This document shows positions 5,870-30,265 of a stretch of DNA of 64,000 bases, piece after piece. The notes beneath the pieces were generated by a model that worked only from the letters and a program-made list of their open reading frames with translations, searched no databases and had not been told where the DNA came from. A program made the translations under genes and the position numbers. The stretch comes from Rhizobacter sp. (GTDB taxonomy: Bacteria > Pseudomonadota > Gammaproteobacteria > Burkholderiales > Burkholderiaceae_C). The DNA lies in assembly GCA_025355745.1 (NCBI GenBank), contig JANXZA010000072.1:12850-76849 (forward strand), given 5' to 3'. Each line of letters starts with the position of its first letter. Position 1 is the stretch's first letter.

Positions 5870-6781
5870 ATGGCGATGCACTTCGATCTGGTCGACCTGC
5901 GCCTGCTGGTGCGGGTCGCCGAGGCCAATAGCCTGACGCGTGGCGCCGAGCTGGTGCACATGGCCGTGCCGACTGCCAGCACGCGCGTCAAGAACATCGA
6001 AGACAGCATCGGCACCAAGCTGTTCTACCGCACCAGCCAGGGCGTGACGCTGACGCCGCCGGGCCAGGCCTTCGTGCACCACGCGCGCCTGGTGCTGGCG
6101 CAGCTCGAACACCTGAGCGGCGATTTGCAGGAGTACGCGAAGGGCATCAAGGGCCACCTGCGGGTCTTCGCCAACACCACCGCGCTGGGCGAGTTTCTGC
6201 CGCCGGTGTTGCGCACCTATCTGCTGACCCACCCGGACGTGAACATCGACCTGCGCGAGCGCCTCAGCCACGACATCGTGCGCGCCGTGTCCGAGGGCCA
6301 GACCGACATCGGCATCGTCGCCGGCACGGTCCGCACCGAGAACCTCGAAGTAATCCCGTACCGCCGCGACCGGCTCGTGCTGGTGGTGCCGAGCGGGCAC
6401 GCGATGGCCGGGCTGGCGTCGGTCGACTTTGCCGACACGCTGGCGCTGGACCACATCGGCCTGCACGAGGCGAGCGCGATCCACGCCTTCCTGCGCCAGA
6501 TCTGCCACGGCCTGCACCGCAGCCTGCGGCTGCGCATCCAGGTCGGCAACTTCGAAGCCGCCTGCCGCATGATCGAAGCGACCGTGGGCGTGGGCGTGCT
6601 GCCCGAATCCGCAGCGCGCCGCCATGCGCAGACGATGGCGATCCGGATCGTGCCGTTGCGCGATGAGTGGTCGGACCGCGCGATGCACATCTGCGTGCGC
6701 AGCCTGCAGGCGCTGCCGGCGTTTGCCCGCGATCTGGTCGCGCTGCTGGTGGAAGACGCGAAGGCCGCGCCTGCCGATTGA
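5870..6781 (+). CDS. LysR family transcriptional regulator
   Basis: MHFDLVDLRLLVRVAEANSLTRGAELVHMAVPTASTRVKNIEDSIGTKLFYR (HTH) plus substrate-binding domain. GAGGAG RBS precedes ATG 5870 (alternative 5876). Confidence 0.95.
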   Translation: MAMHFDLVDLRLLVRVAEANSLTRGAELVHMAVPTASTRVKNIEDSIGTKLFYRTSQGVTLTPPGQAFVHHARLVLAQLEHLSGDLQEYAKGIKGHLRVFANTTALGEFLPPVLRTYLLTHPDVNIDLRERLSHDIVRAVSEGQTDIGIVAGTVRTENLEVIPYRRDRLVLVVPSGHAMAGLASVDFADTLALDHIGLHEASAIHAFLRQICHGLHRSLRLRIQVGNFEAACRMIEATVGVGVLPESAARRHAQTMAIRIVPLRDEWSDRAMHICVRSLQALPAFARDLVALLVEDAKAAPAD

Positions 6782-6821
6782 TCGCGCGGCGTGCCGTCGC
6801 CGTGCCTTCAAAAACAAGAGC

Positions 6822-6924
6822 CAACTCACACACCGCAGAGGCGCAGAGAACGCAGAGGCCCGCAGAGTGAATTCATCAAGAATGACTTCTCTGCGTTCTC
6901 TGCGTTCTCTGCGTTGGTGAGTTG
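6822..6924. repeat. Family A palindromic element, copy 2, followed by a GAGTT microsatellite
   Basis: CAACTCACACACCGCAGAGGCGCAGAG...CTCTGCGTTCTCTGCGTTGGTGAGTTG, located between convergent genes. Confidence 0.85.
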
Positions 6925-6950
6925 AATTGAGTTGAGTTGAGTTCGAACTC

Positions 6951-8780
6951 TCAAGCAACCTTGCGCGGCGCAGTGGAAAACTCCATCTTGTACGCCAGCC
7001 ACCAGATCACGAACACGCCGAGCGTCCACCAGATGATCTGCCAGGCCCAGAGCGACGGAATGCCGAGCTTCCACGCGGCAATGCCCGCGCCGGGCGCACC
7101 GAAGAGGTCGTTGCCGAGCACGGCGCCAGGGCCGATCGCGAAGAACATCCAGCCCAGCATCAGGGCCCAGACCGCTGGCCGCATTGCCTGCTTGGACGCC
7201 GGCAGCCCGGCGCGTTCGCGCAGGTAGCGGTGGAAGCCGTCGCGGTGGCGCCGGCCCGCACCGCCGCGCGTGGCCAGCGAGACCACGGCGCAGGTCAGCA
7301 GGTTGCAGAAGATGCCCCAGCCGGCGGAGTGGATCGTCCAAGGCCAGCGGCCCCAGGGCAGCTCGAAGCCGAAGAAGTGCGCGACCGCCGCACCGACCGG
7401 CTCGGTCAACAGCACCGCGACCAGGCCGACGCACAGGCCCAGCGTGGCCGCTGGACGCGACACCCACGGCAGCCAGCACACGCCCGCCAGCACTGGCCAC
7501 AACTGCAGCGCGAAGGCCAGCGCCAGGCCGCCGAGGCGCACCTGCGCCACCGGCGTGAAGGTGGCCATCAGCAGCGCGGCGATGAAGATCAGCGCCATCG
7601 TGGCGCGGGCGATGCGGCGCTGCGCACGGTCGTCGGCGGCTGGGCGAAAAAAGCGCTTCCAGACATCGAGCGTGACCATCGTCGCCGTGGTCGAGACACA
7701 GCCCGCAGCCGCCATCTGCACCGCCGCGATGACGCCGATCGCCAGCAGGGCCGACAGCCAGGGTTGGCGCGGCGCCAGCGCCAGGAGGGCGGCGGTGGTG
7801 GCGTCCACCGGGGGCGCGTCGGGCCGCAGCAGCCCCCCCAGGCCATAGGCGGTGGCGAAGAACAACAACACCAGCCCGACGATGGCGCCCGTCGCCCACA
7901 CCTGCTGCGCCGCGAAGCCCCGCGTGTCGCGGCAACTGAAGCCGAGCATGCTGAACGAGGGCGAGGCCTGCAGGCCCATCAGTGCGAACGAATAGGTCAG
8001 GATCATCGCTGCGGTCCAGAGGCCGCCGGCCGGCGCCTGCTTGCCCAGGCCGGCGGTGAACTGGATCACGCCGGGGATCTCGAACAGGCTTGGCGCCGCA
8101 GCCGGGCCAGGCGCGGCGAGCCGGGCCAGTGCGGCATTGAAGGCGCCGAAGCCACCGATTTGCGCGTAGGCCAGGCAACCCAGGCCGACCATGCCGGCCA
8201 GCAACAGCAGGCATTGCAGCGCCGCCATGGAAGCAACGCCGCGCAGGCCGCCGAGGAAGGCGCAGACGAAGATGGCGAAGCCCAGCACCCACATCGCAGG
8301 AATGGCACCGACCGCGCCGTGCGTCAGGGTCTGGAGCAACTGGCCGCCGGCGGCGAGTTGCAGGCCGACGAACGGAATCGCGAAGACCAGCGCGATCAGC
8401 ACCGTCAACAGGCGGATCAGTTCACCCTGGTAGTAGTCGGCGAACATCGCGCCGGGCGTCGTGTAGCCGAAGCGCTGGCCGAGCAGCCATTGGCGCTTCA
8501 GGAACAGGATGCCGGCGAGCGGAATGACGATGGCCGCCAGCGCGACTTCACCGTAGGCGAAGCCGCCGAGTTGCAGCAGCGACGGGTGGCCGAGCACGAT
8601 CCAGCCGCTCAGCGACAGCGCCGTGGCCGACAGCACGAAAACCCAGGCCGGCGTTTGCCGGCCGGCCAGGAAAAAGTCGGCTGCGGTGCTTGATCTGCGG
8701 CCCGCCGCTACCGCCCAGTAGAGGCAGAAGGCGAGCAGCAAGGCGCCGAACGCGAGCAGCCAAACGACGTCTTGCGACAA
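6951..8780 (-). CDS. Sodium:solute symporter (SSS) family transporter
   Basis: About 13 hydrophobic segments; AADFFLAGRQTPAWV, ATALSLSGW, GYTTPGAMFADYY. TTG start after a GGAGA RBS. Confidence 0.88.
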   Translation of the reverse strand: MSQDVVWLLAFGALLLAFCLYWAVAAGRRSSTAADFFLAGRQTPAWVFVLSATALSLSGWIVLGHPSLLQLGGFAYGEVALAAIVIPLAGILFLKRQWLLGQRFGYTTPGAMFADYYQGELIRLLTVLIALVFAIPFVGLQLAAGGQLLQTLTHGAVGAIPAMWVLGFAIFVCAFLGGLRGVASMAALQCLLLLAGMVGLGCLAYAQIGGFGAFNAALARLAAPGPAAAPSLFEIPGVIQFTAGLGKQAPAGGLWTAAMILTYSFALMGLQASPSFSMLGFSCRDTRGFAAQQVWATGAIVGLVLLFFATAYGLGGLLRPDAPPVDATTAALLALAPRQPWLSALLAIGVIAAVQMAAAGCVSTTATMVTLDVWKRFFRPAADDRAQRRIARATMALIFIAALLMATFTPVAQVRLGGLALAFALQLWPVLAGVCWLPWVSRPAATLGLCVGLVAVLLTEPVGAAVAHFFGFELPWGRWPWTIHSAGWGIFCNLLTCAVVSLATRGGAGRRHRDGFHRYLRERAGLPASKQAMRPAVWALMLGWMFFAIGPGAVLGNDLFGAPGAGIAAWKLGIPSLWAWQIIWWTLGVFVIWWLAYKMEFSTAPRKVA

Positions 8781-8838
8781 GGATGTCTCCAGGTTGCGGT
8801 TCGGCAGGCCGGCGGGCGCGGTGGCGGGACGCGGCGAC

Positions 8839-9267
8839 CTAACGCTTGCGCACGCGGTCCAGCAGGTCGATCGAACCGCGCACGCCGTGGTGGGCCACCA
8901 GGTAGAACGCGAAGCAGGCGAACAGCAGGCTGAAGCCCGCCAGGCCGATCGCGATGTTCACGCTCTCGAAGTGCGGCAGGACCAGCCAGCTGAGCACAAA
9001 GCCGAGCACCGAGACGATGAAGGCGATAAAGCCCAGCGCGACCTCGCCTTTCGAGAAGCGGGTGCGAAACAGGTGGTTGATGACGACGTGGGCACCGAAC
9101 GCTGCGGCCAGCAGCGCGAAGCCGAACAGGCCGGCGAGCAGATCGGACGCGCTGAAGCCCGTCAGCGTGAAGCACAGGCCGAACGAGCCGAAGAATGCCC
9201 AGTTCGTCGTCACCGCGAGGCGGCGCTCGCCGAGCGGATCAGCCGTTCGAGGATCGTCCTGGTTCAT
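8839..9267 (-). CDS. Small 4-TM hypothetical membrane protein
   Basis: Four hydrophobic helices in 142 aa; starts 14 bp after the flotillin stop; coding-like codon usage. Confidence 0.75.
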   Translation of the reverse strand: MNQDDPRTADPLGERRLAVTTNWAFFGSFGLCFTLTGFSASDLLAGLFGFALLAAAFGAHVVINHLFRTRFSKGEVALGFIAFIVSVLGFVLSWLVLPHFESVNIAIGLAGFSLLFACFAFYLVAHHGVRGSIDLLDRVRKR

Positions 9268-9281
9268 CGCGTGCGCTCTCG

Positions 9282-10979
9282 TCAATGACGTTCAGCGTCG
9301 TTCGAATCGGGATACTCGCCGACCGGAAAGATCGTCAACCCGCCGGTCGAGGTCATCGCGCTCGGCGACATGCCGATCTCGCGCAGCAACCCGTCCACGA
9401 ACGGCACCTGGGCCCGATAGCGCAGCGCCGAATTGACGGCCTGATCGGCGAGGCTGCCGACTCGCTTGCCGCTGCCACCACCACCATCGCCCGCCCCGGC
9501 GCCCTCCCCCTGACCCTGCGCCACCGCCCCGCTCAAGCCCGGCAGCCCGTCGACCTGAAGAATCTTGATCGAGTCGATCTTCTCCATCGGCTTCACGCTC
9601 TCGCGGATGATGCTCGGCAGGCTGCGGATCAGGTCTTCCTGCAGCGCGCTGCGCCGGCTGGCTTCGGAGCGCATGTTCTCGGCCTCGTTCAGCTTGCGCC
9701 GGCCTTCGGCGTCGATTTCGTAGCGCACCTTCGCGGCTTCGGCCGCAGCCACCTGCGCCTGCGCCCGGTCGCCCGCCGCCCGCAACTCGGCCGCCGCGCC
9801 GGTGGTGAGCTTGATCGCGTCGCGCTCGGCGTGCTGCGAGGCTTCCACCAGGTCGATCAGCTTGCGGCGCTCGGCGATGGCCGTGTCGCGCACCGTGTTG
9901 ACGCGCTCGGTGGCCTCGACCGCATCGGCCCGCGCGACCTCGGCTGCCGTCTGCGCCTCCGACTGGGCACGCGACTTCTGCGCCACCGCGATGACGCGCT
10001 CCTGTTCCTCCAGTTCGAGGGCGCGGCGGCGCCTGATCTCCAGGGTCTGCAAGTCCTGCTCGCGCAGCAGTTGCTCCGATTCGACCGCCCGCTCCTGCTT
10101 GATGCGCGACTTCTCGATCTCTTCCTTGACGCGGATCTGCGCGGCCTCGATGTCGTGGTCGCGGTCGGTCTTCTCGCGTGCGATCTCGGCGCGCTGCTGG
10201 GCCCGGCGCATCGCGATCTCGCGCTCCTGGGCCATGCGCGCGTACTCGCCTTCCTGATCGATCGCCAGGCCGAGCTTCTCGGACTCGAGGTTCTTCGCGC
10301 GGATCGCGATCTGCGTGTCCTTCTCGATGTCGTTGCGCTTCTTCTTGCGCGTCTCGATCTCCTCGGTCAGGCGGGTCAGGCCTTCGGCGTCAAAGGCGTT
10401 CGACGGGTTGAACTGCTTCATGTCGGCCTGGTCGACGCTGGTCAGCGACACCGCTTCCAGCTCCAGGCCGTTCTCGGTCATGGTGTGGGCGACCAGCTCG
10501 CGCACGCCGCGCACATAGGCGCTGCGGCCTTCGTGGATCTGCTCCATCGTCATGTTGGCTGCGGTGGCGCCCATCGCATCGACGAAGCGGCCCTGCACCA
10601 GCTCGCGCAGCTTCTCGGGGTCGAGCGTGCGGGTGCCCAGGGTGCGCGCGGCAGCGGCCACGCTTTGCGGGTTCGGGATGACGCGCACGAAGAACTCGAC
10701 GATCACCTCGATGCGCATCCGGTTCTTCGTGATCAGCGACTTGTCGCCGGCGCGTCGCACCTCGATGCGCAAGGTGTTCATGCTGACCTCGGCCACGTCG
10801 TGCACGATCGGCAGCACGAACGCGCCGCCGCCCATCACCACCTTTTCGCCGCCCCAGCCGGTGCGCACGAACGACAGGTCCTTCGACGAATGCCGGTACA
10901 GCCAGTGCAGCAGGTACACGACCACCGCCACGACGATCGCCAGCAAGACAATGATTGCAATGATGTCCGCGCCATTCAT
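9282..10979 (-). CDS. Flotillin / SPFH (band 7) family protein
   Basis: N-terminal TM anchor, then FVRTGWGGEKVVMGGGAFVLP, MNTLRIEVRR, FNPSNAFDAEGLTRL and a long EA/ER-rich coiled coil. GAGGAG RBS before ATG 10979. Confidence 0.93.
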   Translation of the reverse strand: MNGADIIAIIVLLAIVVAVVVYLLHWLYRHSSKDLSFVRTGWGGEKVVMGGGAFVLPIVHDVAEVSMNTLRIEVRRAGDKSLITKNRMRIEVIVEFFVRVIPNPQSVAAAARTLGTRTLDPEKLRELVQGRFVDAMGATAANMTMEQIHEGRSAYVRGVRELVAHTMTENGLELEAVSLTSVDQADMKQFNPSNAFDAEGLTRLTEEIETRKKKRNDIEKDTQIAIRAKNLESEKLGLAIDQEGEYARMAQEREIAMRRAQQRAEIAREKTDRDHDIEAAQIRVKEEIEKSRIKQERAVESEQLLREQDLQTLEIRRRRALELEEQERVIAVAQKSRAQSEAQTAAEVARADAVEATERVNTVRDTAIAERRKLIDLVEASQHAERDAIKLTTGAAAELRAAGDRAQAQVAAAEAAKVRYEIDAEGRRKLNEAENMRSEASRRSALQEDLIRSLPSIIRESVKPMEKIDSIKILQVDGLPGLSGAVAQGQGEGAGAGDGGGGSGKRVGSLADQAVNSALRYRAQVPFVDGLLREIGMSPSAMTSTGGLTIFPVGEYPDSNDAERH

Positions 10980-11034
10980 GCTCTGCTCCTCGTTCAAGAA
11001 TTCAATGCCGGATTGATGCCGGCTCACTGCCGGT

Positions 11035-11739
11035 TCAATGGCTCGCCGTGCCCGCTTCCCGCATCCCCACCGCCAGGAACGTCAGGCCGAATGCGACCAG
11101 GTTGACGAGGTCGGCGAGGTTGTAGGTGGTGTGCAGATAGCGCAGCTCGGTCGGCCCGGTGAAGGCGGCGATGAAGAAGCACAGCGGGTAGATCGCCCAG
11201 CCGATCGTCATGATCAGGCGCAGCCAGAAGTAGCCCTGCTGCACGGCTTCGCTGCCATGCCGCGCGCTGCGCTCGCTGAGCTTGCCGAAGAAGACTTCGC
11301 CCAGGATGTAGAGCCACATGGCCAGCGAGATCAGGAAGCCCAGCGTCGGGTGCATCAACTGCGTCTCGCCCATGAAGCGCGCCAGCACCAGCAGCACCGC
11401 AGCCACCAGCAGGCGCCAGAACACGCCCACCGGCACCGGCGCGAACGCGCGCACGAAGAAATAGACGGCCACCACCTGCAGCGGCAGCGTCAGGAACCAG
11501 CCGACGTAGCGGTGAATCATCGTCAGCTGGCCGGTCGCCAGCCACACATCGGTGGCCAGCATGTAATGCGCGGCCGAGATCAGCGTGGCGATGCCGGCGA
11601 GCGCGATCGGCAGCTTCCAGCGCCGCTGCACCCAGGCCGTGCCGGCGAGCAGCAGCACGGTGGCCGCGAACGTGGCGATCATGAGCAGCACGAAGGTGCC
11701 GCTGGCGATGTCTTGCGCTCCGAGTAACTTGACGATCAT
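11035..11739 (-). CDS. Proteorhodopsin-family opsin lacking the retinal-binding lysine (flotillin-associated rhodopsin-like)
   Basis: 7 TM. AAHY, HRYVGWFLTLPLQ, GWAIYP and YNLADLVNLVAFGL align with the proteorhodopsin motifs FWHY, FRYIDWLLTVPLL, GWAIYP and YNLADFVNKILFGL; K is replaced by L and D by G. Confidence 0.9.
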   Translation of the reverse strand: MIVKLLGAQDIASGTFVLLMIATFAATVLLLAGTAWVQRRWKLPIALAGIATLISAAHYMLATDVWLATGQLTMIHRYVGWFLTLPLQVVAVYFFVRAFAPVPVGVFWRLLVAAVLLVLARFMGETQLMHPTLGFLISLAMWLYILGEVFFGKLSERSARHGSEAVQQGYFWLRLIMTIGWAIYPLCFFIAAFTGPTELRYLHTTYNLADLVNLVAFGLTFLAVGMREAGTASH

Positions 11740-11755
11740 GTCCCGGCCTCTTGAT

Positions 11756-13177
11756 CTAGATTTGCGTTCGGATGTGCGGCGACCTGGCGTAGAGCGCCAC
11801 CATCGGCAGGATCAGCAGCCCGAACACGAACTGCTGCCACTCGAACTTCAGGCCGATGCCGACCAGGAACGAGGTCAGCACCTGCAGCACCAGCACGCCG
11901 ATGACGGTGAAGCCGTAGCCGCCGTAGCCGCCGAGCAGCGAGGTGCCGCCCATCACCACCGCCGCCAGTGTCATGAACAAGTACGGGTTGCCCACGCCGA
12001 TGAAGCCGCCCCCGCTCCAGCCGAGCAGCAAGGCGCCGGTGAGGGCCGCCACGGCGCCGCTCACCATGTAGGCGCCGACCCAATAGCGGCGCTCGGAGAT
12101 CATCAGCCGCGCCGCCGACAGGCGATTCCCGCCGAGCGCATAGAGGTGGCGCCCATAGACGCTGTTCTTCAGCCCGTAGACCAGCAGCGCGGCCAGGCCG
12201 ATCCAGATCAGGATCACCGGCGGCAGCGGCAGGCCGAAGGTGCGGCCGTTCATCGCGGCGAGGTTGCGCAGCCAGTCGGGTACGCTGCCGAAGACATTGC
12301 CGCTGTAGGCGCTGCCGATGCTGGTGAGAATCTGCGTCAGGCCGGAGATCGCGAAGCCGATGCCGAGTGTCAGGATCAGGGCTTGGCCTTGCAGCCGAAA
12401 GCTCAGCAGACCGTTGATGAAACCCACCAGCGCGCCGAGCGCGATGATCAGCAGCACTGCGATCCAGCCCGGCACGCCCAGGCCGATCAGGTACAGCAGG
12501 CCGACGTTCGACGAGCCGATCACGAACGGAATCGACAGGTCCAGCCCGCCAAGCAGCGCGACCAGCGTCTGGCCCACGCAGGCCAGGCCGAGGAACGACG
12601 CGAAGACCAGCATCGACTTGATGTTCGTCGTCGAGGCGAAGCCCTCGACCGTGAACGAGCCGATCGCGAACAGTGCGGCCAGCACCGTCAGGCCGATGAA
12701 GGCGCTGCGGTTGCCCTCGAACACCTTGCTGACCTTGACGGCAAAGACCAGCAGCGCGGCGACCACCAACAACGCGATGACGTTGCCCAGCGTGAAGAAG
12801 GCCGTGGCCGTGACCGAGGCGATCAGGAACACCGCGAGCAGGATCAGCAAGGCGATCAACAGGGCGCGATTGCGCAGCAGGAATTGCTTGAAGGCGGCGC
12901 GCGCACCGGGCCGCTCGCTGGCATCCGGCGCACCCGCTGATTCGGCCGCTGCCGTTGGCTCACGGGACGACCCACCGGACGGCTCACCCATCGCCCCCGG
13001 CAGTGCGAACGAATTCCAGGCCCAGACCACCAGCGCGAAGGTGGCGGCGGTGTAGAAGATGACGTTCTGCGCAGGCTGGGATTGCCACAGGCCCAGGATC
13101 AAGCCGAGCCCGGCGACGAGCCCGGCCGTCGCCAGGCCGACCCATTTGCGCAGCGCGAAGGAAGCGGTATCACGCAT
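11756..13177 (-). CDS. Sugar-type (RbsC-like) ABC permease with N-terminal extra membrane region
   Basis: GQTLVALLGGLDLS, YGRHLYALGGNRLSAARLMI, LAAVVMGGTSLLGGYG; about 150 extra N-terminal residues. Confidence 0.88.
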   Translation of the reverse strand: MRDTASFALRKWVGLATAGLVAGLGLILGLWQSQPAQNVIFYTAATFALVVWAWNSFALPGAMGEPSGGSSREPTAAAESAGAPDASERPGARAAFKQFLLRNRALLIALLILLAVFLIASVTATAFFTLGNVIALLVVAALLVFAVKVSKVFEGNRSAFIGLTVLAALFAIGSFTVEGFASTTNIKSMLVFASFLGLACVGQTLVALLGGLDLSIPFVIGSSNVGLLYLIGLGVPGWIAVLLIIALGALVGFINGLLSFRLQGQALILTLGIGFAISGLTQILTSIGSAYSGNVFGSVPDWLRNLAAMNGRTFGLPLPPVILIWIGLAALLVYGLKNSVYGRHLYALGGNRLSAARLMISERRYWVGAYMVSGAVAALTGALLLGWSGGGFIGVGNPYLFMTLAAVVMGGTSLLGGYGGYGFTVIGVLVLQVLTSFLVGIGLKFEWQQFVFGLLILPMVALYARSPHIRTQI

Positions 13178-14549
13178 GGCTCAGCAGCCAGACACCGAGC
13201 ACGATGACGGCGGCAAACCCGCCGTAGAGCACCGGCGTCATCGTGCGGGCACGCGTCTGCGAGACGGTGACGCGCAGGAACAGCAGCAGCGCGAGCAGTA
13301 GCAGCGCGGCCAGCGCGGTGGTGCGTTGCAGCGCGGTCAATGAGAACGAGGCGCCCGCCGAGGGCGCATCGAAGATGAACGAATCGACCGGACGCGCGGT
13401 GGCGCGCGGCGCTTGCGTCTGCGTCTGTGTCTGCGCCTGCTTCTGCGTCTGCGGCGCATCGAGCGCGACCCTTTCGGCCGGCGGGTACTTCGCATAGTCG
13501 TGCTTGGCATGCAGCATGACCCCTGCGAACAGCAGCGACAGCACGACGAAGACGAGGAACGGCGACAGCCGTCGCGCATGCCGCTGCACATGCGGCAGCG
13601 CCACCGTCAACAGCAGCGACAGCACCAGGATGACGCCGTAGGCCAGGTCGGTGACGAAGCCCTGCACCATGCCGAAGTTGAAGGTCGCGAGCACATAGCC
13701 GATCAGGAACAGGTTCAAGGCGCCGAGCAGCGAGCCGATCACCCCGCCGCGCCCACCGGCCAGGCTGGTGCCACCGAGCACCAGCGCGGTCACGGCGATC
13801 AGCGTGTAGGTCGTGCCCTGCGTCGGGTCGCCCGAGCCGATCAGCGCGGTGTAGCAAAGCGCGGCCAGGCCGATGAAGGCGCCCGAGATGCAGTGCGCGC
13901 CGATGCGCACGATGCTGATGCGAACGCCGCTGGTGTAGGCGGCGCGCTCGTCCGACCCCATCAGGCGCAGGTGGCCGTAGAACGCGCTGCGCGTGAAGAG
14001 CAGCCACGCGGCGGTGCACACGACCAGAATCAGCAGCACCGGCGACAGCAGGGTGTCGCCCAGGCCCCAGGGCAGCATCCATTCCGGTGCCGAGCCGCCC
14101 GGCCGGGGGAGGATCACGAGGTTGATGCCGGACAGCGCGAGGTAGCCGCTCAGCGCCACGATGATGGGCTGCACGCGCACGAAGATGATCACCAGCGCCA
14201 TCAGCAACTGATACGCCACTCCCACCGCGATGACGTAGGCGAACACCGCCAGCGGCGAGGTAACGAGGTCCAGGCCGCTGAACTGCACCAGCGTCACGTT
14301 GATGAAGCCGAGCAAGGGGCCGACCGAAAGATCGACAGTGCCGCGCCCGGCCATCGCCGTGGCCATCAAGCCGTAGGTGGCCAGCACCAGCGGCGCGGTC
14401 ACGAGCACCGCGCTGCCGATGCCGGCGCTGGAGATCAGGCTCGGGCCGCGCAGCACGGCGACGATCAGCAACGCGAACAGCATCAGGATCGGCACCAGCA
14501 GGTAAGTGCTGGTCGCCGTGGAGGGCAGGTGGACGCGCGCGTCGGCCAT
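13170..14549 (-). CDS. Sugar-type (RbsC-like) ABC permease with C-terminal extra membrane region
   Basis: GTVDLSVG, LRLMGSDERAAYTSGV, VTALVLGGTSLAGGRGG; about 130-aa C-terminal extension with a QTQTQ linker; overlaps the next gene by 8 bp. Confidence 0.88.
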   Translation of the reverse strand: MADARVHLPSTATSTYLLVPILMLFALLIVAVLRGPSLISSAGIGSAVLVTAPLVLATYGLMATAMAGRGTVDLSVGPLLGFINVTLVQFSGLDLVTSPLAVFAYVIAVGVAYQLLMALVIIFVRVQPIIVALSGYLALSGINLVILPRPGGSAPEWMLPWGLGDTLLSPVLLILVVCTAAWLLFTRSAFYGHLRLMGSDERAAYTSGVRISIVRIGAHCISGAFIGLAALCYTALIGSGDPTQGTTYTLIAVTALVLGGTSLAGGRGGVIGSLLGALNLFLIGYVLATFNFGMVQGFVTDLAYGVILVLSLLLTVALPHVQRHARRLSPFLVFVVLSLLFAGVMLHAKHDYAKYPPAERVALDAPQTQKQAQTQTQTQAPRATARPVDSFIFDAPSAGASFSLTALQRTTALAALLLLALLLFLRVTVSQTRARTMTPVLYGGFAAVIVLGVWLLSHA

Positions 14550-14621
14550 GGGGTGGCGATGCTGGGTTCAGGTCGGCGGGGTGGCGGGCAAGTGGCGCGT
14601 GGGTGTCAGCTCACCTGCGGC

Positions 14622-15686
14622 CTAGCGCCGCGCGCGGCTGCCGCGTCCCGCGTCGACGTCGAGCACGCGCACCGAACCCCGGTCGGTGCCGGCGGGAGTC
14701 GGGCTCCTGTACGAAGGCGATTCGGCACTGGCGGTGGCCCGGCCTTGCGTTGCGCGCTCGGCGCCGCGACCGGGCTCATCACGGCCCGTGTCGCGGCCGC
14801 TGTCACGTCCCGCGCGCTCCGTCGATCGCCCGGCTTCGCGATCCGACTGCACGATCTTCTTCAACACCGGCATCAAGTATTCCTTGAACAGCTCCGGGTT
14901 CTCGGACATCGGGAAATGACCGATGTTTTCCATGATGATGCACTCCGAGTTCTTGACCTTGTCGGCCGTCTGCTGCGTCATCTCGGGCGTGCAGGCGAAG
15001 TCGTAGACGCCGGTCATGAAGTAGATCGGAACGCGCCCGGAGATCTTCCGGCACAGCTCGCGGTAGTCGTGGTCGACGCTGTAGAAATGCAGGTCGCCCT
15101 TGAACACGCCGGGGCCGCCCTGCGCATAGAACCACCAGGTTTCCCAGCGGTAGTCGTTCGGGCTTTGCGGCGCCATCAGGCCGAAGGTGGCCGTGGCGCA
15201 GACCTCGCCGCCATGGATGTGCGGGTGCATCAACGGGTCGATCCACCAGCCCGGCGAATGGTCGCAGGCCTCGATCGCGATCAGCGCCGAGACTTCGTCT
15301 TCATAGTGCAGCGCCAGCGGCAGGCAGACGTTGCCGCCCATCGAGCTGCCCATGATGACGGGCTTTTTCAGCTCCAGCGCGCGGCAGAACGCCATCACGA
15401 ACTCGGCATAGAACTTGGAGGTGAGCTTGTATTCCTCTTCTTCCTTGTAGAAGTCGCCCGGCGGGTTCGATTTGCCGTGGCGTGGCAGGTCGAACGCGAT
15501 GACGTGAAAATTCTTCGCGATCTCCGCATCGCAGAGTTGATGCCGCCACTCGCGCCCGTCGGTGCCTGCGGTGTGCAGGCACACGAGCGGAATGCCCTGG
15601 CCGTTTTCCTCGTAGTAGGTGCGGTAGGTTTCGCCTTCGCACTGCACATAGACGTAGCGCCCAACGATCGGGTCGAACTTGGCCAT
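14622..15686 (-). CDS. Alpha/beta hydrolase with low-complexity C-terminal tail
   Basis: LVCLHTAG, AFDLPRHGKS, GSSMGG nucleophile elbow, GHFPMSENP. AAAGGA RBS before ATG 15686. Confidence 0.9.
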   Translation of the reverse strand: MAKFDPIVGRYVYVQCEGETYRTYYEENGQGIPLVCLHTAGTDGREWRHQLCDAEIAKNFHVIAFDLPRHGKSNPPGDFYKEEEEYKLTSKFYAEFVMAFCRALELKKPVIMGSSMGGNVCLPLALHYEDEVSALIAIEACDHSPGWWIDPLMHPHIHGGEVCATATFGLMAPQSPNDYRWETWWFYAQGGPGVFKGDLHFYSVDHDYRELCRKISGRVPIYFMTGVYDFACTPEMTQQTADKVKNSECIIMENIGHFPMSENPELFKEYLMPVLKKIVQSDREAGRSTERAGRDSGRDTGRDEPGRGAERATQGRATASAESPSYRSPTPAGTDRGSVRVLDVDAGRGSRARR

Positions 15687-15749
15687 TTTCGGATTCCTTT
15701 TGAGGGGTGACGGGCGGCGGGTGGCAGGCAGCAAGGCTGGGCCGGCGCG

Positions 15750-16154
15750 TCAGACTTCGCGCATCACCGCGAGCATCCAGGACAGCGCGCGCAGGTTCTG
15801 CCAGAACGGCTTGGTGTCGCCTTCGATCTTCAGCCTGCCGTGCAGCGGGTGGGCCATGGCCCAGATGTCGTTGTACATGGGCGGCGGCATCGGCTGCACG
15901 AAGCGGCTCCACGATCCCGCCGGGGCCCGCAATGCAAACTGCCAGCCCATCATGTTCGCGCTCACGCCTTCCGAGACCTGCTGGATGCGGCCCTCGCGCA
16001 CCACGACCAGGTAGTCCCGGTCGTCGATGCCGACGACGAAATTGACGCTGAAGAAGCGGCCGATGACGCGCAGCACGCGGTCGTCGTTGACCTTGTTGGC
16101 CCAGGATTCGAACCAGTCAAGGTCCAGCGGAGCCGATGCGGTGTACCGAGTCAT
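15750..16154 (-). CDS. Hypothetical protein, possibly SCP2/sterol-carrier-like fold
   Basis: 134 aa; the pattern FVVGID..YLVVVREGRI..WQFALRA..W..GRLKIEGD..F resembles SCP2-like domains (by eye). Confidence 0.6.
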   Translation of the reverse strand: MTRYTASAPLDLDWFESWANKVNDDRVLRVIGRFFSVNFVVGIDDRDYLVVVREGRIQQVSEGVSANMMGWQFALRAPAGSWSRFVQPMPPPMYNDIWAMAHPLHGRLKIEGDTKPFWQNLRALSWMLAVMREV

Positions 16155-16194
16155 GGTCTGGGTTCCTCAGTGGGGGTCGGTCGATTCCCTATTC

Positions 16195-16234
16195 CTCCCC
16201 CTCTCCCGCTCGCGGGAGAGGGTTGGGGCGAGGG
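16195..16234. repeat. REP-like hairpin, family B (CCCTCTCCC...GGGAGAGGG)
   Basis: CCCTCTCCCGCTCGCGGGAGAGGGTTGGGGCGAGGG; a related copy in the opposite orientation lies at 23824-23885. Confidence 0.7.
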
Positions 16235-16270
16235 CGGTTGGTGGCGCAAACATACTGCTGATCGTTTCCG

Positions 16271-18487
16271 TCACGCGGTCGGCAACGGCTGCGAGGCCGG
16301 CCCGTAGAGGCCGGTCAGGCTCGCGGTCTTGATCGTCATCGGCAACACCGCAGTGACGAAATCAACGTAGTTCGCCGTCTCCGCAAGCTGCAGCGTCTCG
16401 CACTTCAATGCGTACAACGTGAAGACGTAACGGTGCGCCGCGTCGGGCGGCCACGGCCCGCCGTAGCCTTTGCCGAAACCGGGAACGGCGAAGGTCACGA
16501 AGTCGCTGTTCAGCTCCTTCATGCCGGGCGGCAGCAGGCTCTTCGCACCGGCCCCTTCGACAAGCTTGCGCGTGCCGGCCGGAATGTCGTGCGCCAGCCA
16601 GTGGGCGAAGGCGCGCGGGAAGTTGAAGTGCGCCGGAAGGTCGGGGTCGGTGATGGCGAGCGCAAAGCTTTTCGTCCCCTTCGGCGGGTGCTCCCACAGG
16701 ATCGGCGGGGAGACGCGGTTGTGTTCGGCGTAGCGCGCGGGAATGCGCGCACCTTCGTCGAACGCGGGTGACCACAGCTCGAACAGGCCGTCGGCGAGGG
16801 GCTCGTCAGCCGGTGCTTTTGGCGGCGTCGAGTCCGCCGTGGCCGGGCCGCTGGCTGCCGGCGGCGAAGCGCCGTGCGGCCGGGCAGCGTGCGCGCCGCG
16901 CGCCTGGCCGAACATCGCCTGCAGCACCGCTGCGGGGTGAACCGCAGCGCCCGTCAGTTCCTCGAAGATGCCGCCGCCGCGGAACACCAGCACACGCTCG
17001 CACAGACCGACCAGTTCCTCAATCTCGCTGGACAAGTAGACGACCGATTTGCCGGTCGCCGCGAAGTCCGTCAGGTACTGGTACAGATCGCTCTTGGCGC
17101 TGACGTCGACGCCGCGTGCCGGATCGTTGAGCACCAGAATCGTCGGGTTCAGCGCGAACGCGCGGCCGATCAGCACCTTCTGCTGGTTGCCGCCTGAAAG
17201 CGACGTTATGCGGTCGCTGCGGTCGCCCATGCGAACCGCGAGTTTGCGCGCCTCCCAGTCGAACACGCTGCCCAGTGCGGCCCAGTCGAGGATCTTCAGC
17301 TTGCCGGCCCGGCTGCTGCTGCGGTAGCGCGGCAGCAGCAGGTTCTCGAAGATGCCCAGGTTCGGGAAAATGCCTTCGCGCTTGCGGTCGCCAGACACAT
17401 ACGACACGCCGCAGTCGGCCGCGTCGGCCAGGCTGCGCACCGGCACGAAGCCCAGGCCCGGGTGCAACACCGTCGGCGCGCCATGAGCGGCACGGTCCAC
17501 TCCCGCCAGGATGCGCACGAACTCGCTCTGGCCCTGGCCGTCGAGACCGGCGATGCCGAGAATCTCGCCGCGATGCAGGTGGAACGACACGTCCGGCCCG
17601 CCCGGCCAGACCTTCAGGCCGGCGGCCTGCATCAGCAGCTCGGGTGCGTGTACTGCGGCGTCGGTGGCGGCGCGCGCCGCATGGGCGGCCCCGCCTGCCG
17701 CGGTCGGAACCTGGACCTGGGCGCTGGCCCTGCCCGTCATGAGCTGCAACAGGTTCTTTTCGGTGATCTGCTGGCGCTCCAGCACGCCGACATCGCGCCC
17801 GTCGCGCAGCACCGTGGCGCGATCGGAGATCTCGATCAACTCAGCAATGCGGTGCGTGACGATGATGATGGCCGAGCCTTCATCCCGAAGCTGGCGCAGC
17901 TTGGCGAACAGGCGCTGTGTCGAGTCGAGATCGAGCGCCGCCGACGATTCGTCGAGGATCAGCGCGCGCGGCTTGCACAGCAGCGCGCGGCCGATCGTGA
18001 TCCATTGCTTCAGGCCGAGCGGCAGGGTGCCGACGAGCGTGCCGGGGTCGATCGGCAGGCCGGTCAGCTCAAGCATCAGGGCCTGGGCGGCCGCCACCTT
18101 GGCGCGCTGCGGCATGGCACGCGAGAACAGGGCATCGGCACCGAGGAAGAGGTTGTCGACGACCGAGCTTTCGTCGGCCACCATCACCTCCTGGAAGACA
18201 GTGGCGATGCCGACCTGACGCGCCTCGTGCGGCGAGGTCGGCGTGTGGCCGAAGACCAGCACCTGGCCGCTGTCGGGTGGCAGCACGCCCGACAGCACTT
18301 TGGCCAGGGTGCTCTTGCCGCAGCCGTTACCGCCGACGATGGCGTGGATCTCGCCGCGCGAGGCGCTGAAACTGCAGCCGTCCAGCGCCTTCGTCACCCC
18401 GAAGGTCTTGCGCACGCCGACCACGAAAATGTCGCGCGGCGCGGCCGTTCGTGGGGCTTCGCGTTCAAGCGCCGGAGTGTCGAGCAT
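16271..18487 (-). CDS. Sugar ABC ATP-binding protein (tandem NBD) fused to a C-terminal YbhB/YbcL (PEBP) domain
   Basis: Walker A GGNGCGKST, LILDESSAALD and LSGGNQQK, then an Ala/Pro linker and FELWSPAF..GARIP..SPPILW..PKGTKSFALAITDPD..FAHW..YGGPWPP..HRYVFTLYAL. Start uncertain (18487 chosen). Confidence 0.88.
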   Translation of the reverse strand: MLDTPALEREAPRTAAPRDIFVVGVRKTFGVTKALDGCSFSASRGEIHAIVGGNGCGKSTLAKVLSGVLPPDSGQVLVFGHTPTSPHEARQVGIATVFQEVMVADESSVVDNLFLGADALFSRAMPQRAKVAAAQALMLELTGLPIDPGTLVGTLPLGLKQWITIGRALLCKPRALILDESSAALDLDSTQRLFAKLRQLRDEGSAIIIVTHRIAELIEISDRATVLRDGRDVGVLERQQITEKNLLQLMTGRASAQVQVPTAAGGAAHAARAATDAAVHAPELLMQAAGLKVWPGGPDVSFHLHRGEILGIAGLDGQGQSEFVRILAGVDRAAHGAPTVLHPGLGFVPVRSLADAADCGVSYVSGDRKREGIFPNLGIFENLLLPRYRSSSRAGKLKILDWAALGSVFDWEARKLAVRMGDRSDRITSLSGGNQQKVLIGRAFALNPTILVLNDPARGVDVSAKSDLYQYLTDFAATGKSVVYLSSEIEELVGLCERVLVFRGGGIFEELTGAAVHPAAVLQAMFGQARGAHAARPHGASPPAASGPATADSTPPKAPADEPLADGLFELWSPAFDEGARIPARYAEHNRVSPPILWEHPPKGTKSFALAITDPDLPAHFNFPRAFAHWLAHDIPAGTRKLVEGAGAKSLLPPGMKELNSDFVTFAVPGFGKGYGGPWPPDAAHRYVFTLYALKCETLQLAETANYVDFVTAVLPMTIKTASLTGLYGPASQPLPTA

Positions 18488-18616
18488 GGTCAAGGCCGAC
18501 GAATCAAGCGTGGAGCGTTCGCGTGTGCGGGCGGGCGGATCAGGGCTGGCAGCGGCGACGGGTTGTGAGGCCGGTCGTGGGCGCAAAGCGCAGCAACTCA
18601 CCGCACAAATTCACCG

Positions 18617-19807
18617 TCACGGCTTGAACTTCTCCGGGTCGGCCGGGCGCAGGAAAAAGGCGTCGAGCTTGGCGGTGCTGGCCCAACGGTTGATGCCGAT
18701 GCTGAGCCACTTGTCGGAGTCTTCGCTGCAGTCGGCGGGCACGGATTTCTCGATGTCTGCGTAGGTCAGCTTGACCGGCTCGACCAGCACCGACTGGACC
18801 TTCGGGCCCTGGCCCTGCAACGTGCGCATCATGATGTTCCAGGCCAGCTCCATGTCGTCGGCGGGCGGCCAGGCCTGGATCGCGGCGCTGATGTACTTCG
18901 GGTTCTTGCGCCAGTAGCACAGTGCGCCGAGTTCACCACCGACCGTGATCGGGACCATCTTGCGCCCCGATTGCTTGAGCGCGCGCAAGCCGCCGAGTTC
19001 GGACGCTGACTGGATCACGACGCCGTTCAATTCGCCCGGGTTGGTGGCGAGCCACTTCTGCACCTCGGCCTGCGCAACCTGATCGGTCCACATGCCGGCG
19101 ACGCTGCCGACGACCTTGATGCCGGGGTATTTCGCCAGGGCCGCTTTCACGCCCCGGTCTTGCGAGTCGGACGCCGACGTGCCGGGGATGCCCTCGACCA
19201 CCAGCACATTGCCCTTCTTGCCGATTTCTTCGGCCATCCAGGTGCCGAGCTGGAAGCCGCCGAGCTGGAAGTTGGCCGACGAGTTGACGGCATATGGCGA
19301 GGTCAAATAGCCGGTCGCCGAGAAGGTCGGGATGCCCTTGTCGTACGCGACCTTGACGGTCTGGTTCAGCGCCGTCGGGTTCGAGCAGCAGACGATGATC
19401 GCGTCCACGCCCTGGTCGATGAGCTGGCGCATCTGCTGGATCTGCGTCGCGTCCTTCAGGTTCGACTGCGTGATGATCACTTCCTTGATCAGGCCGAGCT
19501 TTTTCCACTTCGGAATCAGCTCGTTCTGCAACCGGTCCATCACCGCCGCGCGCCAGGTGTTGCCGGCGTAGGAACTGGCATAGCCGATGGTCCACGGCGG
19601 GCCTTTCTTGGGCTTCCAGTCGCGGTACGCGCTGGGGCCGAGCGGCTGGGCCGGGTCCATCATGTCGCCTGAGTACAGGCGGGTGCGAACGTCGGCCGGA
19701 AGCTCGTCGACGCCGGTGGCGAACGCTGCGCCCGACGCGCCAGCCACCAGCCCGGCCAGCGCCAAGGCCCTGACACCGCGACGTTGTTGCATGCGAAGTT
19801 GGTTCAT
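18617..19807 (-). CDS. Sugar-type ABC periplasmic substrate-binding protein
   Basis: RRG..ALALAGLVAGASGAAFA signal; IGYASSYAGNTWR, QIQQMRQLIDQGVDAIIV, VEGIPGTS..DR. GGGAG RBS. Confidence 0.9.
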   Translation of the reverse strand: MNQLRMQQRRGVRALALAGLVAGASGAAFATGVDELPADVRTRLYSGDMMDPAQPLGPSAYRDWKPKKGPPWTIGYASSYAGNTWRAAVMDRLQNELIPKWKKLGLIKEVIITQSNLKDATQIQQMRQLIDQGVDAIIVCCSNPTALNQTVKVAYDKGIPTFSATGYLTSPYAVNSSANFQLGGFQLGTWMAEEIGKKGNVLVVEGIPGTSASDSQDRGVKAALAKYPGIKVVGSVAGMWTDQVAQAEVQKWLATNPGELNGVVIQSASELGGLRALKQSGRKMVPITVGGELGALCYWRKNPKYISAAIQAWPPADDMELAWNIMMRTLQGQGPKVQSVLVEPVKLTYADIEKSVPADCSEDSDKWLSIGINRWASTAKLDAFFLRPADPEKFKP

Positions 19808-19873
19808 GTCATCTCCCGGGCTTTTGTGAAGGCGTCTTTGCGCCTGCATTCATGTTCGGGCAACCCTGCCGAT

Positions 19874-19916
19874 CCGGCAATTTCCAATTTTCGAACCCCG
19901 CCTTCGGCAATTGCGA
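19874..19916. promoter_or_regulatory. Second copy of the putative LysR double-box motif
   Basis: CCGGCAATT-N10-GAACCC-N4-TTCGG-N4-TGCGA, with the same spacing and orientation as 5617-5659. Confidence 0.5.
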
Positions 19917-19985
19917 TGCCCTTCGGTTGCGCCGGCGGCACGAGCGCGGCGCAGGCAGAATCGGTGACCACCCACGGAGATTCGC

Positions 19986-30243: not shown

Positions 30244-30265
30244 CGGCGCGGCCCCGCAGGCTGCG

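What the first reader, a model, noticed from the sequence alone, without database searches (positions are those of the whole stretch)
11035..11739. Proteorhodopsin homolog with Lys->Leu at the Schiff-base site and a G-T-A motif
Seen: aligned by eye to green proteorhodopsin, helix G YNLADFVNK becomes YNLADLVNL (K231 to L). Helix C RYIDWLLTVPLLICE becomes RYVGWFLTLPLQVVA (D97 to G, T101 kept, L105 to Q, E108 to A). His75, Arg94 and Asp227 equivalents are retained. No blh/crt retinal genes are in the window. Known: the Lys is needed for covalent retinal binding, and D97/E108 for proton pumping. Inference: not a light-driven pump; the retained R/H/D polar core may bind another ligand or gate ions.
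Basis: partly seen in the sequence, partly recalled or inferred. Interest (0 to 1): 0.8.

Follow-up and report, generated by a model that had tools for sequence, protein, structure and literature searches.

The report
Lysine-less flotillin-associated rhodopsin (FArhodopsin)
The gene is a real, well-conserved rhodopsin-fold membrane protein that has lost the lysine needed to hold retinal; it belongs to the already described flotillin-associated rhodopsins, which are light-blind and of unknown function.

Summary
ORF 11035-11739 (-) encodes a 234-aa proteorhodopsin-family protein with Leu at the Schiff-base lysine site and a G-T-A motif, and helix G contains no lysine. It is not an orphan. A flotillin gene follows on the same strand, and the best sequence and fold matches are the retinal-free FArhodopsin PsFAR (PDB 9r21). 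The surrounding 10-gene cluster shares flotillin, alpha/beta-hydrolase, SCP2-like and sodium:solute symporter genes with the SAR11 FAR cluster. Haro-Moreno et al. 2023 already described freshwater FArhodopsins with Q/T/L/R at the lysine site, so this is a new member of a known kind. The nearest relatives are Rhizobacter/Methylibium MAGs. The gene is under purifying selection (dN/dS 0.08-0.19, like its neighbours), so it is not a pseudogene. Points not found in the two FAR papers read here: an Arg (R121) in 188 of 189 relatives where proteorhodopsin has Gly and PsFAR has its retinal-blocking E120; a rare flotillin-linked relative that keeps Lys but already has this Arg; an R77/R214 swap in subclades; and the same cluster in the Tistlia consotensis genome assembly. 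Function remains inferred: a light-independent partner of flotillin in a transporter microdomain.

The parts
11035..11739 (-). Lysine-less FArhodopsin gene (234 aa, 7 TM helices). ATG at 11739 is preceded by AAGAGG.
   Evidence: AF2 model has pLDDT 93.4 and pTM 0.90. Foldseek top hit is 9r21_A (PsFAR), TM 0.94.
11098..11100 (-). Codon 214, CTG = Leu, at the retinal Schiff-base lysine position (GPR K231, PsFAR K213).
   Evidence: The closest Gln-bearing relative (L003) has CAG, one base away.
11467..11511 (-). Helix C segment R77-A91: R77, G80 (GPR D97), T84 (T101), L85 (PsFAR H84), Q88 (L105), A91 (E108).
11377..11379 (-). Codon 121, CGC = Arg, on helix D. It aligns with PsFAR E120 (blocks the beta-ionone site) and with Gly in proteorhodopsins. 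It is Arg in 188 of 189 relatives.
9282..10979 (-). Flotillin gene (Band_7 + Flot domains). The likely start is ATG 10979 (GAGGAG upstream, 565 aa, 55-nt spacer). The mechanical ORF start is GTG 11027.
   Evidence: It is 51% identical to the SAR11 FAR-cluster flotillin.
8839..9285 (-). Small hydrophobic (apparently membrane) protein (about 142-148 aa, no family). It is conserved directly after the flotillin in most related loci long enough to show it.
6951..8780 (-). Sodium:solute symporter family transporter, the last gene of the cluster.
   Evidence: It is 35% identical to the SAR11 FAR-cluster SSF. Synteny.
11756..14549 (-). Two CUT2-type ABC permeases (BPD_transp_2), 11756-13177 and 13170-14549, immediately upstream of the rhodopsin.
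14622..15734 (-). Alpha/beta-hydrolase, 51% identical to the SAR11 FAR-cluster hydrolase.
15750..16154 (-). 134-aa protein homologous to the SAR11 FAR-cluster protein annotated as SCP2 sterol-binding superfamily.
   Evidence: blastp E 1.4e-19, 26% identity. No Pfam hit.
16271..18601 (-). Double ABC ATPase fused to a C-terminal phosphatidylethanolamine-binding-protein (PEBP) domain.
   Evidence: The same fusion occurs in L007, L013 and L015.
18617..19849 (-). Periplasmic binding protein (Peripla_BP_4), the first gene of the cluster. A divergent DctP gene starts at 19986.

Best explanation
The gene encodes a lysine-less flotillin-associated rhodopsin (FArhodopsin). It is a proteorhodopsin-derived 7-TM protein that no longer binds retinal covalently and is neither a pump nor a photoreceptor. 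The chromophore site is disabled in three ways. There is no Schiff-base Lys (L214). The proton acceptor and donor are gone (G80, A91). A near-invariant Arg (R121) sits at the helix-D position where proteorhodopsins have the Gly that makes room for the beta-ionone ring, and where PsFAR has the retinal-blocking E120. The fold and much of the inner scaffold are kept under purifying selection (R77, W81, Q88, W181, Y184, P185, D210, N213). The protein is most likely made from one long operon with a dedicated flotillin, a small membrane protein, a sodium:solute symporter, a CUT2-type ABC importer, an SCP2-like protein and an alpha/beta-hydrolase. I infer that it acts independently of light as a structural or regulatory membrane partner of the flotillin, helping to build or tune a membrane microdomain that houses this uptake module. 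Shown here: identity, Lys loss, the substitutions, selection and conserved synteny. Inferred: absence of any retinal binding (by analogy with PsFAR), oligomerisation, interaction with flotillin and the microdomain role.
For: The best sequence hits among solved structures are PsFAR 9r23/9r21 (E 6e-47), ahead of proteorhodopsins. The best fold hit is 9r21_A with TM 0.94. A flotillin gene lies directly downstream, as in all 17 related loci with a relative at 41% identity or more. The flotillin (51%), hydrolase (51%), SSF (35%) and SCP2-like (E 1e-19) genes are homologous to the published SAR11 FAR cluster. N-termini of the 'freshwater unknown taxon' FArhodopsins in Table S4 (MSIKLLGATDVVSGTF...) resemble the query's MIVKLLGAQDIASGTF. 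Haro-Moreno 2023 reports Q/T/L/R at the Lys site in freshwater FARs. Among 189 relatives, position 214 is Q112 R38 L15 V15 E6 K2 I1 and position 121 is R in 188. PsFAR binds no retinal, and both H84 and E120 must be replaced to restore binding. dN/dS is 0.08-0.19 for the FAR against 0.08-0.21 for flotillin, permease and SSF. Gene spacings within the cluster are short, and terminator-like sites are no more frequent than chance.
Against: There is no experimental datum for this protein or for any lysine-less FAR. No FAR-flotillin contact has been shown, and Kovalev et al. found no obvious flotillin-binding adaptation in PsFAR. The PsFAR polyene blocker (H84, reported as aromatic in FARs) is absent here: L85 is aliphatic as in proteorhodopsin, so part of the pocket may remain open for some ligand. 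My crude NJ tree places the R121 clade apart from the marine FARs rather than as their demonstrated sister. Co-transcription is not shown, because no RNA runs were found.
Confidence: 0.6

Rival explanations
1. Ligand-binding opsin-fold receptor or carrier. The retained hydrophobic pocket plus the buried Arg (R121, or R214 in subclades) binds an anionic amphiphile such as a fatty acid or lipid. Occupancy regulates, or feeds, the neighbouring transporters and lipid-handling proteins.
For: Position 85 is aliphatic (V/M/L), as in retinal-binding proteorhodopsins, not the H/F blocker of marine FARs. Pocket-wall residues W81, W181, Y184, P185 and N213 are conserved. Apo-proteorhodopsin binds decanoate in the retinal pocket with its carboxylate salt-bridged to the Lys (PMC11322631). 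The cluster encodes SCP2-like, PEBP-domain and alpha/beta-hydrolase proteins.
Against: No coordinates were available, so pocket volume could not be measured, and R121 may simply fill the cavity as E120 does in PsFAR. There is no transducer gene in the cluster and no ligand data.
Confidence: 0.15
2. Light-independent phospholipid scramblase. The opsin fold itself flips lipids and, together with flotillin, shapes membrane domains.
For: A proteorhodopsin was reported to have retinal- and light-independent scramblase activity with physiological benefit (PMC10730872). The neighbours have a lipid theme.
Against: This rests purely on analogy, and no residue pattern diagnostic of scrambling was tested. 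It does not explain the invariant R121 or the D210-Arg constraint.
Confidence: 0.1
3. Regulatory subunit of a bona fide proteorhodopsin encoded elsewhere in the genome, forming a hetero-oligomer that tunes the pump. This is the hypothesis of Haro-Moreno et al. for marine FARs.
For: Marine FAR genomes always carried a DTE proteorhodopsin. The pentamer-forming fold is conserved.
Against: There is no rhodopsin paralog and no retinal or carotenoid gene in these 64 kb. Relatives occur in sediment, soil and glacier metagenomes. Whole-genome presence of a PR or blh could not be checked.
Confidence: 0.1
4. Decaying pseudogene, or a relic that is carried along passively.
For: It has lost every residue needed for the ancestral function. 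At long range it is the least conserved protein of the cluster (for example L014: FAR 56% against flotillin 74%).
Against: The reading frame is intact at 231-236 aa in most of the ~190 relatives. dN/dS is 0.08-0.19, equal to the neighbours. Thirty-six positions are 97% or more conserved, and gene order is conserved across Alpha- and Betaproteobacteria.
Confidence: 0.02

Closest known systems
Freshwater lysine-less FArhodopsins (Haro-Moreno et al. 2023, mSystems, PMC10308929)
   Same: Proteorhodopsin-family protein of about 234 aa without the N-terminal signal region. A flotillin gene lies immediately downstream on the same strand. The Lys site is Q/T/L/R, the FAR-cluster genes are shared, and the N-terminal sequence matches the Table S4 entries.
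   Different: That paper left these sequences as 'unknown taxon' from lake metagenomes. Here the nearest relatives are Rhizobacter/Methylibium MAGs (Burkholderiales, 68% GC), found mostly in stream or glacier sediment and soil metagenomes. The invariant R121, the linked ABC importer and the V/E variants at the Lys site are not mentioned there.
PsFAR, the marine Pseudothioglobus FArhodopsin (PDB 9r21; Kovalev et al. 2025 bioRxiv)
   Same: Best sequence hit (E 7e-47) and best fold hit (TM 0.94, 38% identity). Flotillin-linked. No donor carboxylate. A charged residue sits at the helix-D ionone position (E120 against R121).
   Different: PsFAR keeps K213 and D79 and blocks the polyene channel with H84, and it has F57 in place of the proteorhodopsin His. 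The window protein has L214, G80, an aliphatic L85, Arg instead of Glu at 121, and keeps the His (H58).
Green/blue proteorhodopsin proton pumps (GPR, Med12 BPR 4jq6)
   Same: Same fold, with 32-33% identity. R94, T101, D227, N230, W98, W197/Y200/P201 and H75 equivalents are retained, and Q at position 105 as in blue PR.
   Different: No K231, D97 or E108. Arg replaces the helix-D Gly. There is no signal peptide, and the genomic context differs.
Rh-noK (xanthorhodopsin-related lysine-less rhodopsins encoded in tandem with a proteorhodopsin gene)
   Same: Natural loss of the Schiff-base lysine with the fold preserved.
   Different: It is a different rhodopsin lineage: xanthorhodopsin 3ddl is only 19% identical in the fold search. 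The neighbours here are an ABC permease and a flotillin, not a proteorhodopsin. Rh-noK regains pumping with Lys restored alone (as cited). Here R121 predicts that a single L214K change would not suffice.

Membership tests
FArhodopsin (flotillin-associated rhodopsin) | Proteorhodopsin-family type-1 rhodopsin fold | tested here: met
   PF01036 E 2.9e-21. AF2 model with 7 TM helices and pLDDT 93.4. Top Foldseek hits are PsFAR and proteorhodopsins.
FArhodopsin (flotillin-associated rhodopsin) | Flotillin gene immediately downstream on the same strand | tested here: met
   Flot + Band_7 protein at 9282-10979/11027 (-), with a 7-55 nt spacer. It is 51% identical to the SAR11 FAR-cluster flotillin. 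The same tandem is seen in the 17 related loci with a relative at 41% identity or more.
FArhodopsin (flotillin-associated rhodopsin) | Non-DTE motif at BR positions 85/89/96 | tested here: met
   G80-T84-A91. Relatives have G/A/D/E - T/S - A/T/V at these positions.
FArhodopsin (flotillin-associated rhodopsin) | N-terminal truncation (about 23 aa, signal-peptide region) relative to proteorhodopsin | tested here: met
   Query residue 5 aligns to GPR residue 22. The protein is 234 aa, the same length as the SAR11 FAR.
FArhodopsin (flotillin-associated rhodopsin) | Shared FAR gene cluster (SCP2-like, alpha/beta-hydrolase, sodium:solute symporter) | tested here: met
   blastp against the Table S2 proteins: hydrolase 51%, SSF 35%, SCP2-like E 1e-19.
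FArhodopsin (flotillin-associated rhodopsin) | Placement inside the FAR clade in a rhodopsin phylogeny | tested here: inconclusive
   In the NJ/BLOSUM tree the R121 clade is monophyletic but not resolved as sister to the marine FARs. PsFAR is the top sequence and fold hit, and the N-termini match the published freshwater FARs.
FArhodopsin (flotillin-associated rhodopsin) | No retinal binding | not testable with these tools
   Inferred from the absent Lys and from R121 at the PsFAR E120 position. It needs expression with retinal.
FArhodopsin (flotillin-associated rhodopsin) | Co-occurs with a bona fide proteorhodopsin paralog in the same genome (marine members) | not testable with these tools
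   None is present in the 64-kb window.
Light-driven proton-pumping proteorhodopsin | Schiff-base lysine in helix G | tested here: not met
   L214 sits at the site, and helix G has no Lys.
Light-driven proton-pumping proteorhodopsin | Carboxylate proton acceptor (D97) and donor (E108) | tested here: not met
   G80 and A91.
Rh-noK | Xanthorhodopsin-related lineage | tested here: not met
   The nearest solved relatives are FAR and proteorhodopsin at 32-38% identity, whereas xanthorhodopsin 3ddl is at 19%.
Rh-noK | [quoted passage not shown] | tested here: not met
   The flanking genes are an ABC permease and a flotillin, and there is no second rhodopsin in the window.

The most novel reading that the evidence does not exclude
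The non-marine FArhodopsin branch has turned the old retinal pocket into a binding site for an anionic amphiphile such as a fatty acid or lipid. The channel stays lined by aliphatic and aromatic residues as in proteorhodopsin, and a buried, essentially invariant Arg (R121) supplies the charge that Lys supplies to decanoate in apo-proteorhodopsin. The protein would then be a light-blind, ligand-gated regulatory or lipid-handling subunit of a flotillin microdomain that controls the co-encoded ABC and SSF transporters.
Probability: 0.12. Interest if true: 0.75.

Novelty: new member of a known kind. Interest (0 to 1): 0.4.

Why it matters
FArhodopsins are widespread, conserved and, where tested, retinal-free, and their function is an open question. 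This window adds no new kind of system. It does show the lysine-less branch in a large-genome, high-GC betaproteobacterium from sediments, which is neither streamlined nor planktonic, and that weakens the idea that FARs are a twilight-zone add-on to proteorhodopsin. It also shows a fixed 8-10 gene module (ABC importer, FAR, flotillin, small membrane protein, SSF) conserved across Alpha- and Betaproteobacteria. It points to testable determinants: R121, the Arg77/Arg214 swap, and a natural Lys-bearing R121 intermediate. Finally, the Tistlia consotensis genome assembly carries the module; if a strain of that named species is available, genetics could be done there, although the 2025 structure paper states that all FAR hosts are uncultivated.

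Tried and rejected
- **Pseudogene:** rejected, because dN/dS is 0.08-0.19 and equal to the neighbours, with an intact length across the relatives.
- **A Lys elsewhere in helix G:** rejected, because the only Lys are at 4, 42 and 153.
- **Rh-noK membership:** rejected on lineage and context.
- **Representative-library search:** returned mostly fragments and added little beyond a few 35-50% outgroups.
- **NJ tree:** did not resolve whether the R121 clade is sister to the marine FARs. No maximum-likelihood tool was available.
- **NCBIfam:** has no model for this protein, and the only hit (AFWIR, E 0.024, 15 bits against a cutoff of 60) is noise.
- **Rfam on the window:** nothing.
- **Promoter and terminator scan of 6700-20100:** nothing above shuffled expectation.
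- **RNA-seq runs holding the gene:** none, so expression and co-transcription are unverified.
- **Pocket volume:** the AF2 tool returns no coordinates, so pocket volume and R121 contacts could not be measured.
- **Literature searches on Tistlia plus rhodopsin or flotillin:** found nothing.
- **PR/blh paralog elsewhere in the genome:** could not be checked.

Full report
**1. The observation**

The minus-strand ORF 11035-11739 encodes 234 aa. It matches Pfam Bac_rhodopsin with E 2.9e-21.

I aligned it to green proteorhodopsin (GPR). The GPR sequence was recalled from memory, and its canonical numbering for eight landmark residues checked out.

| GPR residue | Window residue |
|---|---|
| H75 | H58 |
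| R94 | R77 |
| D97 | G80 |
| T101 | T84 |
| L105 | Q88 |
| E108 | A91 |
| D227 | D210 |
| K231 | L214 |

- An independent, ungapped HMMER alignment to solved structures places L214 opposite K213 of PsFAR (YNLTDFLNK against YNLADLVNL).
- The protein has only three lysines (4, 42, 153). None lies in helix G, which is residues 199-233 in a confident AlphaFold2 model (pLDDT 93.4, pTM 0.90).
- The window holds no second rhodopsin.
- No carotenoid or retinal synthesis family appears among its called genes.

**2. What it is**

The best solved-structure sequence hits are 'flotillin-associated rhodopsin' 9r23/9r21 (E 6e-47). They rank ahead of Med12 and green/blue proteorhodopsins. The best fold match is also PsFAR 9r21_A (TM 0.94, 38% identity).

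The next gene downstream on the same strand (9282-11027) carries Band_7 and Flotillin domains.
- Its likely true start is ATG 10979, behind a GAGGAG motif.
- That start gives 565 aa, as called on an identical MAG contig.

The gene lies in a run of ten same-strand genes, in this order:

| Window coordinates (-) | Product |
|---|---|
| 18617-19849 | Periplasmic binding protein |
| 16271-18601 | Double ABC ATPase fused to a PEBP domain |
| 15750-16154 | 134-aa protein (SCP2-like by homology) |
| 14622-15734 | Alpha/beta-hydrolase |
| 13170-14549 and 11756-13177 | Two CUT2-type permeases |
| 11035-11739 | The rhodopsin |
| 9282-11027 | Flotillin |
| 8839-9285 | Small hydrophobic (apparently membrane) protein of about 145 aa |
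| 6951-8780 | Sodium:solute symporter |

I compared these with the protein sequences published for the SAR11 FAR cluster (Table S2 of Haro-Moreno et al. 2023). The blastp results were:
- flotillin 51% identical
- hydrolase 51% identical
- symporter 35% identical
- the 134-aa protein matches the SCP2-superfamily protein at E 1e-19
- the rhodopsins 33% identical, both 234 aa

The published paper states that most freshwater FArhodopsins lack the helix-G lysine and carry Gln, Thr, Leu or Arg instead. It also states that they always sit next to a flotillin when contigs are long enough. The N-termini of those 'freshwater unknown taxon' sequences in Table S4 (MSIKLLGATDVVSGTF, MNTKLLEATDVASGTF) resemble the query's MIVKLLGAQDIASGTF.

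The gene is therefore a member of an already described group.

**3. Host and distribution**

- The window is 68% GC.
- The closest genome records are Rhizobacter sp. and Methylibium sp. MAGs at 96-97% identity.
- The identical protein occurs on MAG contig JANXUH010000016 with the same ten genes.
- Runs holding the locus are sediment, freshwater-sediment, glacier, freshwater and soil metagenomes.
- No RNA run was found.

**4. Conservation and selection**

Nei-Gojobori dN/dS for the rhodopsin and three cluster neighbours, window against three relatives:

| Relative | Rhodopsin | Flotillin | Permease | Symporter |
|---|---|---|---|---|
| L001 | 0.084 | 0.077 | 0.108 | 0.212 |
| L002 | 0.103 | not computed | not computed | not computed |
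| L003 | 0.187 | 0.122 | not computed | 0.194 |
| L013 | 0.112 | 0.122 | 0.096 | 0.149 |

The rhodopsin values match those of its neighbours. The gene is maintained by selection and is not a pseudogene.

The rhodopsin-flotillin tandem is present in all 17 loci that encode a relative at 41% identity or more. The full module recurs in the following:
- a Rhodospirillales MAG (L004)
- a Rhodobacteraceae MAG (L005)
- a complete 6.8-Mb chromosome, CP070697.1 (L013)
- soil and other metagenomic contigs
- the Tistlia consotensis genome assembly GCA_900188055.1 (L017)

**5. The chromophore site across the clade**

I examined 189 full-length relatives from two homology searches.

*The lysine site (position 214)*
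- The counts are Q 112, R 38, L 15, V 15, E 6, K 2 and I 1.
- The window's Leu (CTG) is one base from the Gln codon (CAG) of its 85%-identical relative. Relatives at 94-95% identity also have Gln.
- Leu is therefore a recent, apparently neutral variant of a site whose only rule seems to be 'not Lys'.

*Position 121*
- It is Arg in 188 of 189 relatives.
- It aligns with E120 of PsFAR and with Gly in proteorhodopsins.
- Kovalev et al. showed that PsFAR binds no retinal. They also showed that both H84 (polyene channel) and E120 (beta-ionone site) must be replaced to restore binding.
- In the window protein the H84 equivalent is aliphatic (L85; V/M/L/I in the clade), as in proteorhodopsin. The block at the ionone end is therefore the conserved feature of this branch.

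*The Lys-bearing relatives*
- The two Lys-bearing relatives (P0305 and P0306; the locus of P0305, L004, was examined and is flotillin-linked) already have R121, with signature A-H-R-D-T-T-Q-A-R-D-K.
- This suggests that the pocket was plugged before the lysine became dispensable.

*Other conserved positions*
- R77, W81, Q88, W181, Y184, P185, D210 and N213 are conserved.

*The Arg77/Arg214 swap*
- Of 35 sequences lacking R77, 33 have Arg at 214. Of 154 with R77, only 5 do.
- Fisher p is 4e-29, not corrected for phylogeny.
- One buried Arg near D210 therefore seems to be required.

Neither FAR paper mentions R121 or the ABC module, and the 2023 paper gives no taxonomic assignment for these sequences.

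**6. Mechanism**

Shown:
- The protein cannot form a retinal Schiff base.
- It lacks the proton acceptor and donor.
- It keeps the fold.
- It is selected.
- It is fixed in gene order with a dedicated flotillin and transporters.

Inferred, at about 0.6 confidence: it is a light-independent partner of the flotillin in a membrane microdomain that houses or tunes the co-encoded uptake systems.

Rivals:
- **Ligand binding.** The partly preserved hydrophobic pocket plus R121 binds an anionic amphiphile. Apo-proteorhodopsin holds decanoate in the retinal pocket, and the cluster has SCP2-like, PEBP and hydrolase genes.
- **Lipid scramblase.** This rests on analogy with a proteorhodopsin reported to scramble lipids without light.
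- **Regulator of a proteorhodopsin encoded elsewhere.** This is the published hypothesis for marine FARs. It is untestable from 64 kb and less attractive for a sediment-dwelling heterotroph.
- **Pseudogene.** Refuted.

**7. Comparison and novelty**

It works like, and is a member of, the FArhodopsins. It differs from the one characterised member, PsFAR:

| Feature | Window protein | PsFAR |
|---|---|---|
| Schiff-base lysine | Absent (L214) | K213 |
| Counterion Asp | Absent (G80) | D79 |
| Helix-D ionone position | R121 | E120 |
| Polyene-channel position | Aliphatic L85 | H84 |
| Proteorhodopsin His | Kept (H58) | F57 |

It is not an Rh-noK, because the lineage differs and there is no tandem proteorhodopsin.

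My verdict is a new member of a known kind, with moderate interest. The main value is in the side results:
- R121
- the Lys-bearing intermediate
- the Arg swap
- the conserved ABC-FAR-flotillin-SSF module
- a named species (Tistlia consotensis) whose genome carries the module

**8. Limits**

- There are no model coordinates, so no pocket geometry.
- The tree is crude.
- There are no expression data.
- There is no whole-genome check for proteorhodopsin or blh.
- Operon structure is inferred only from short spacings and the lack of terminator signal above chance.

Noticed in passing
relatives P0313-P0373 (alignment); window positions R77 (11509-11511) and L214 (11098-11100): Arg swap in the clade. 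Of 35 relatives lacking the helix-C Arg (R77 replaced by H/Q/N), 33 have Arg at the former Schiff-base lysine site. Of 154 with R77, only 5 do (Fisher p 4e-29, not phylogeny-corrected). This suggests one buried Arg next to D210 is required.
   Followed up: partly
L004 9411-10088 (Rhodospirillales MAG CAZCBM010000008.1); proteins P0305, P0306: Two relatives keep the helix-G Lys (YNLGDLINK) and D80 but already carry R121; the examined locus (L004, P0305) is flotillin-linked with the full cluster. They are a natural intermediate and imply that the pocket-plugging Arg is older than the lysine loss.
   Followed up: partly
L017 (Tistlia consotensis GCA_900188055.1, FZNU01000020.1, 81623-102324): The genome assembly of a named alphaproteobacterial species carries the same module: binding protein, ABC, 2 permeases, FAR, flotillin, small protein, SSF, SCP2-like, hydrolase. 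The 2025 PsFAR paper says all FAR hosts are uncultivated. No paper in the library links Tistlia with rhodopsin.
   Followed up: partly
window 16271-18601 (-): The cluster's double ABC ATPase has a C-terminal phosphatidylethanolamine-binding-protein (PEBP, PF01161) domain. The fusion recurs in L007, L013 and L015 but is absent in L014, L016, L017 and L019.
   Followed up: partly
window 9282-11027 (-): The mechanical ORF start (GTG 11027) of the flotillin is probably wrong. ATG 10979 is preceded by GAGGAG, matches the N-terminus of the SAR11 flotillin (MNGADIIA... against MTKGADIIA...), and is the start called on the identical MAG contig (565 aa).
   Followed up: yes
L014, L005 and L016 compared with the window: At long evolutionary distance the rhodopsin is the least conserved protein of the cluster (for example L014: FAR 56%, flotillin 74%, binding protein 77%; L005: FAR 41%, binding protein 68%). 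Among close relatives its dN/dS equals that of its neighbours.
   Followed up: partly
window 26598-38303 (-): A soluble di-iron monooxygenase cluster: two Phenol_Hydrox subunits at 34317-35438 and 36636-38303, a Fer2/FAD/NAD reductase at 35457-36524, an amidohydrolase at 32883-33914, an FeS_assembly_P protein at 32068-32877 and a GroEL-like chaperonin at 30403-32040. An Nramp transporter (28828-30243) and a GAF/sigma-54 activator (26598-28724) lie next to it.
   Followed up: no
window 38899-46146: Alcohol-oxidation genes lie near the monooxygenase. They are a WD40 protein, a CobW-type GTPase, a Zn alcohol dehydrogenase (41169-42278), a GntR/FCD regulator and a PQQ-dependent dehydrogenase (43813-46146, +).
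   Followed up: no
window 24251-26332 (-): A 693-aa ORF with no Pfam hit and an unusually high second-position GC (0.68). It may be a low-complexity protein or a wrong-frame call.
   Followed up: no
window 59766-62522 (+): A 918-aa Phosphoesterase-family (PF04185) protein.
   Followed up: no
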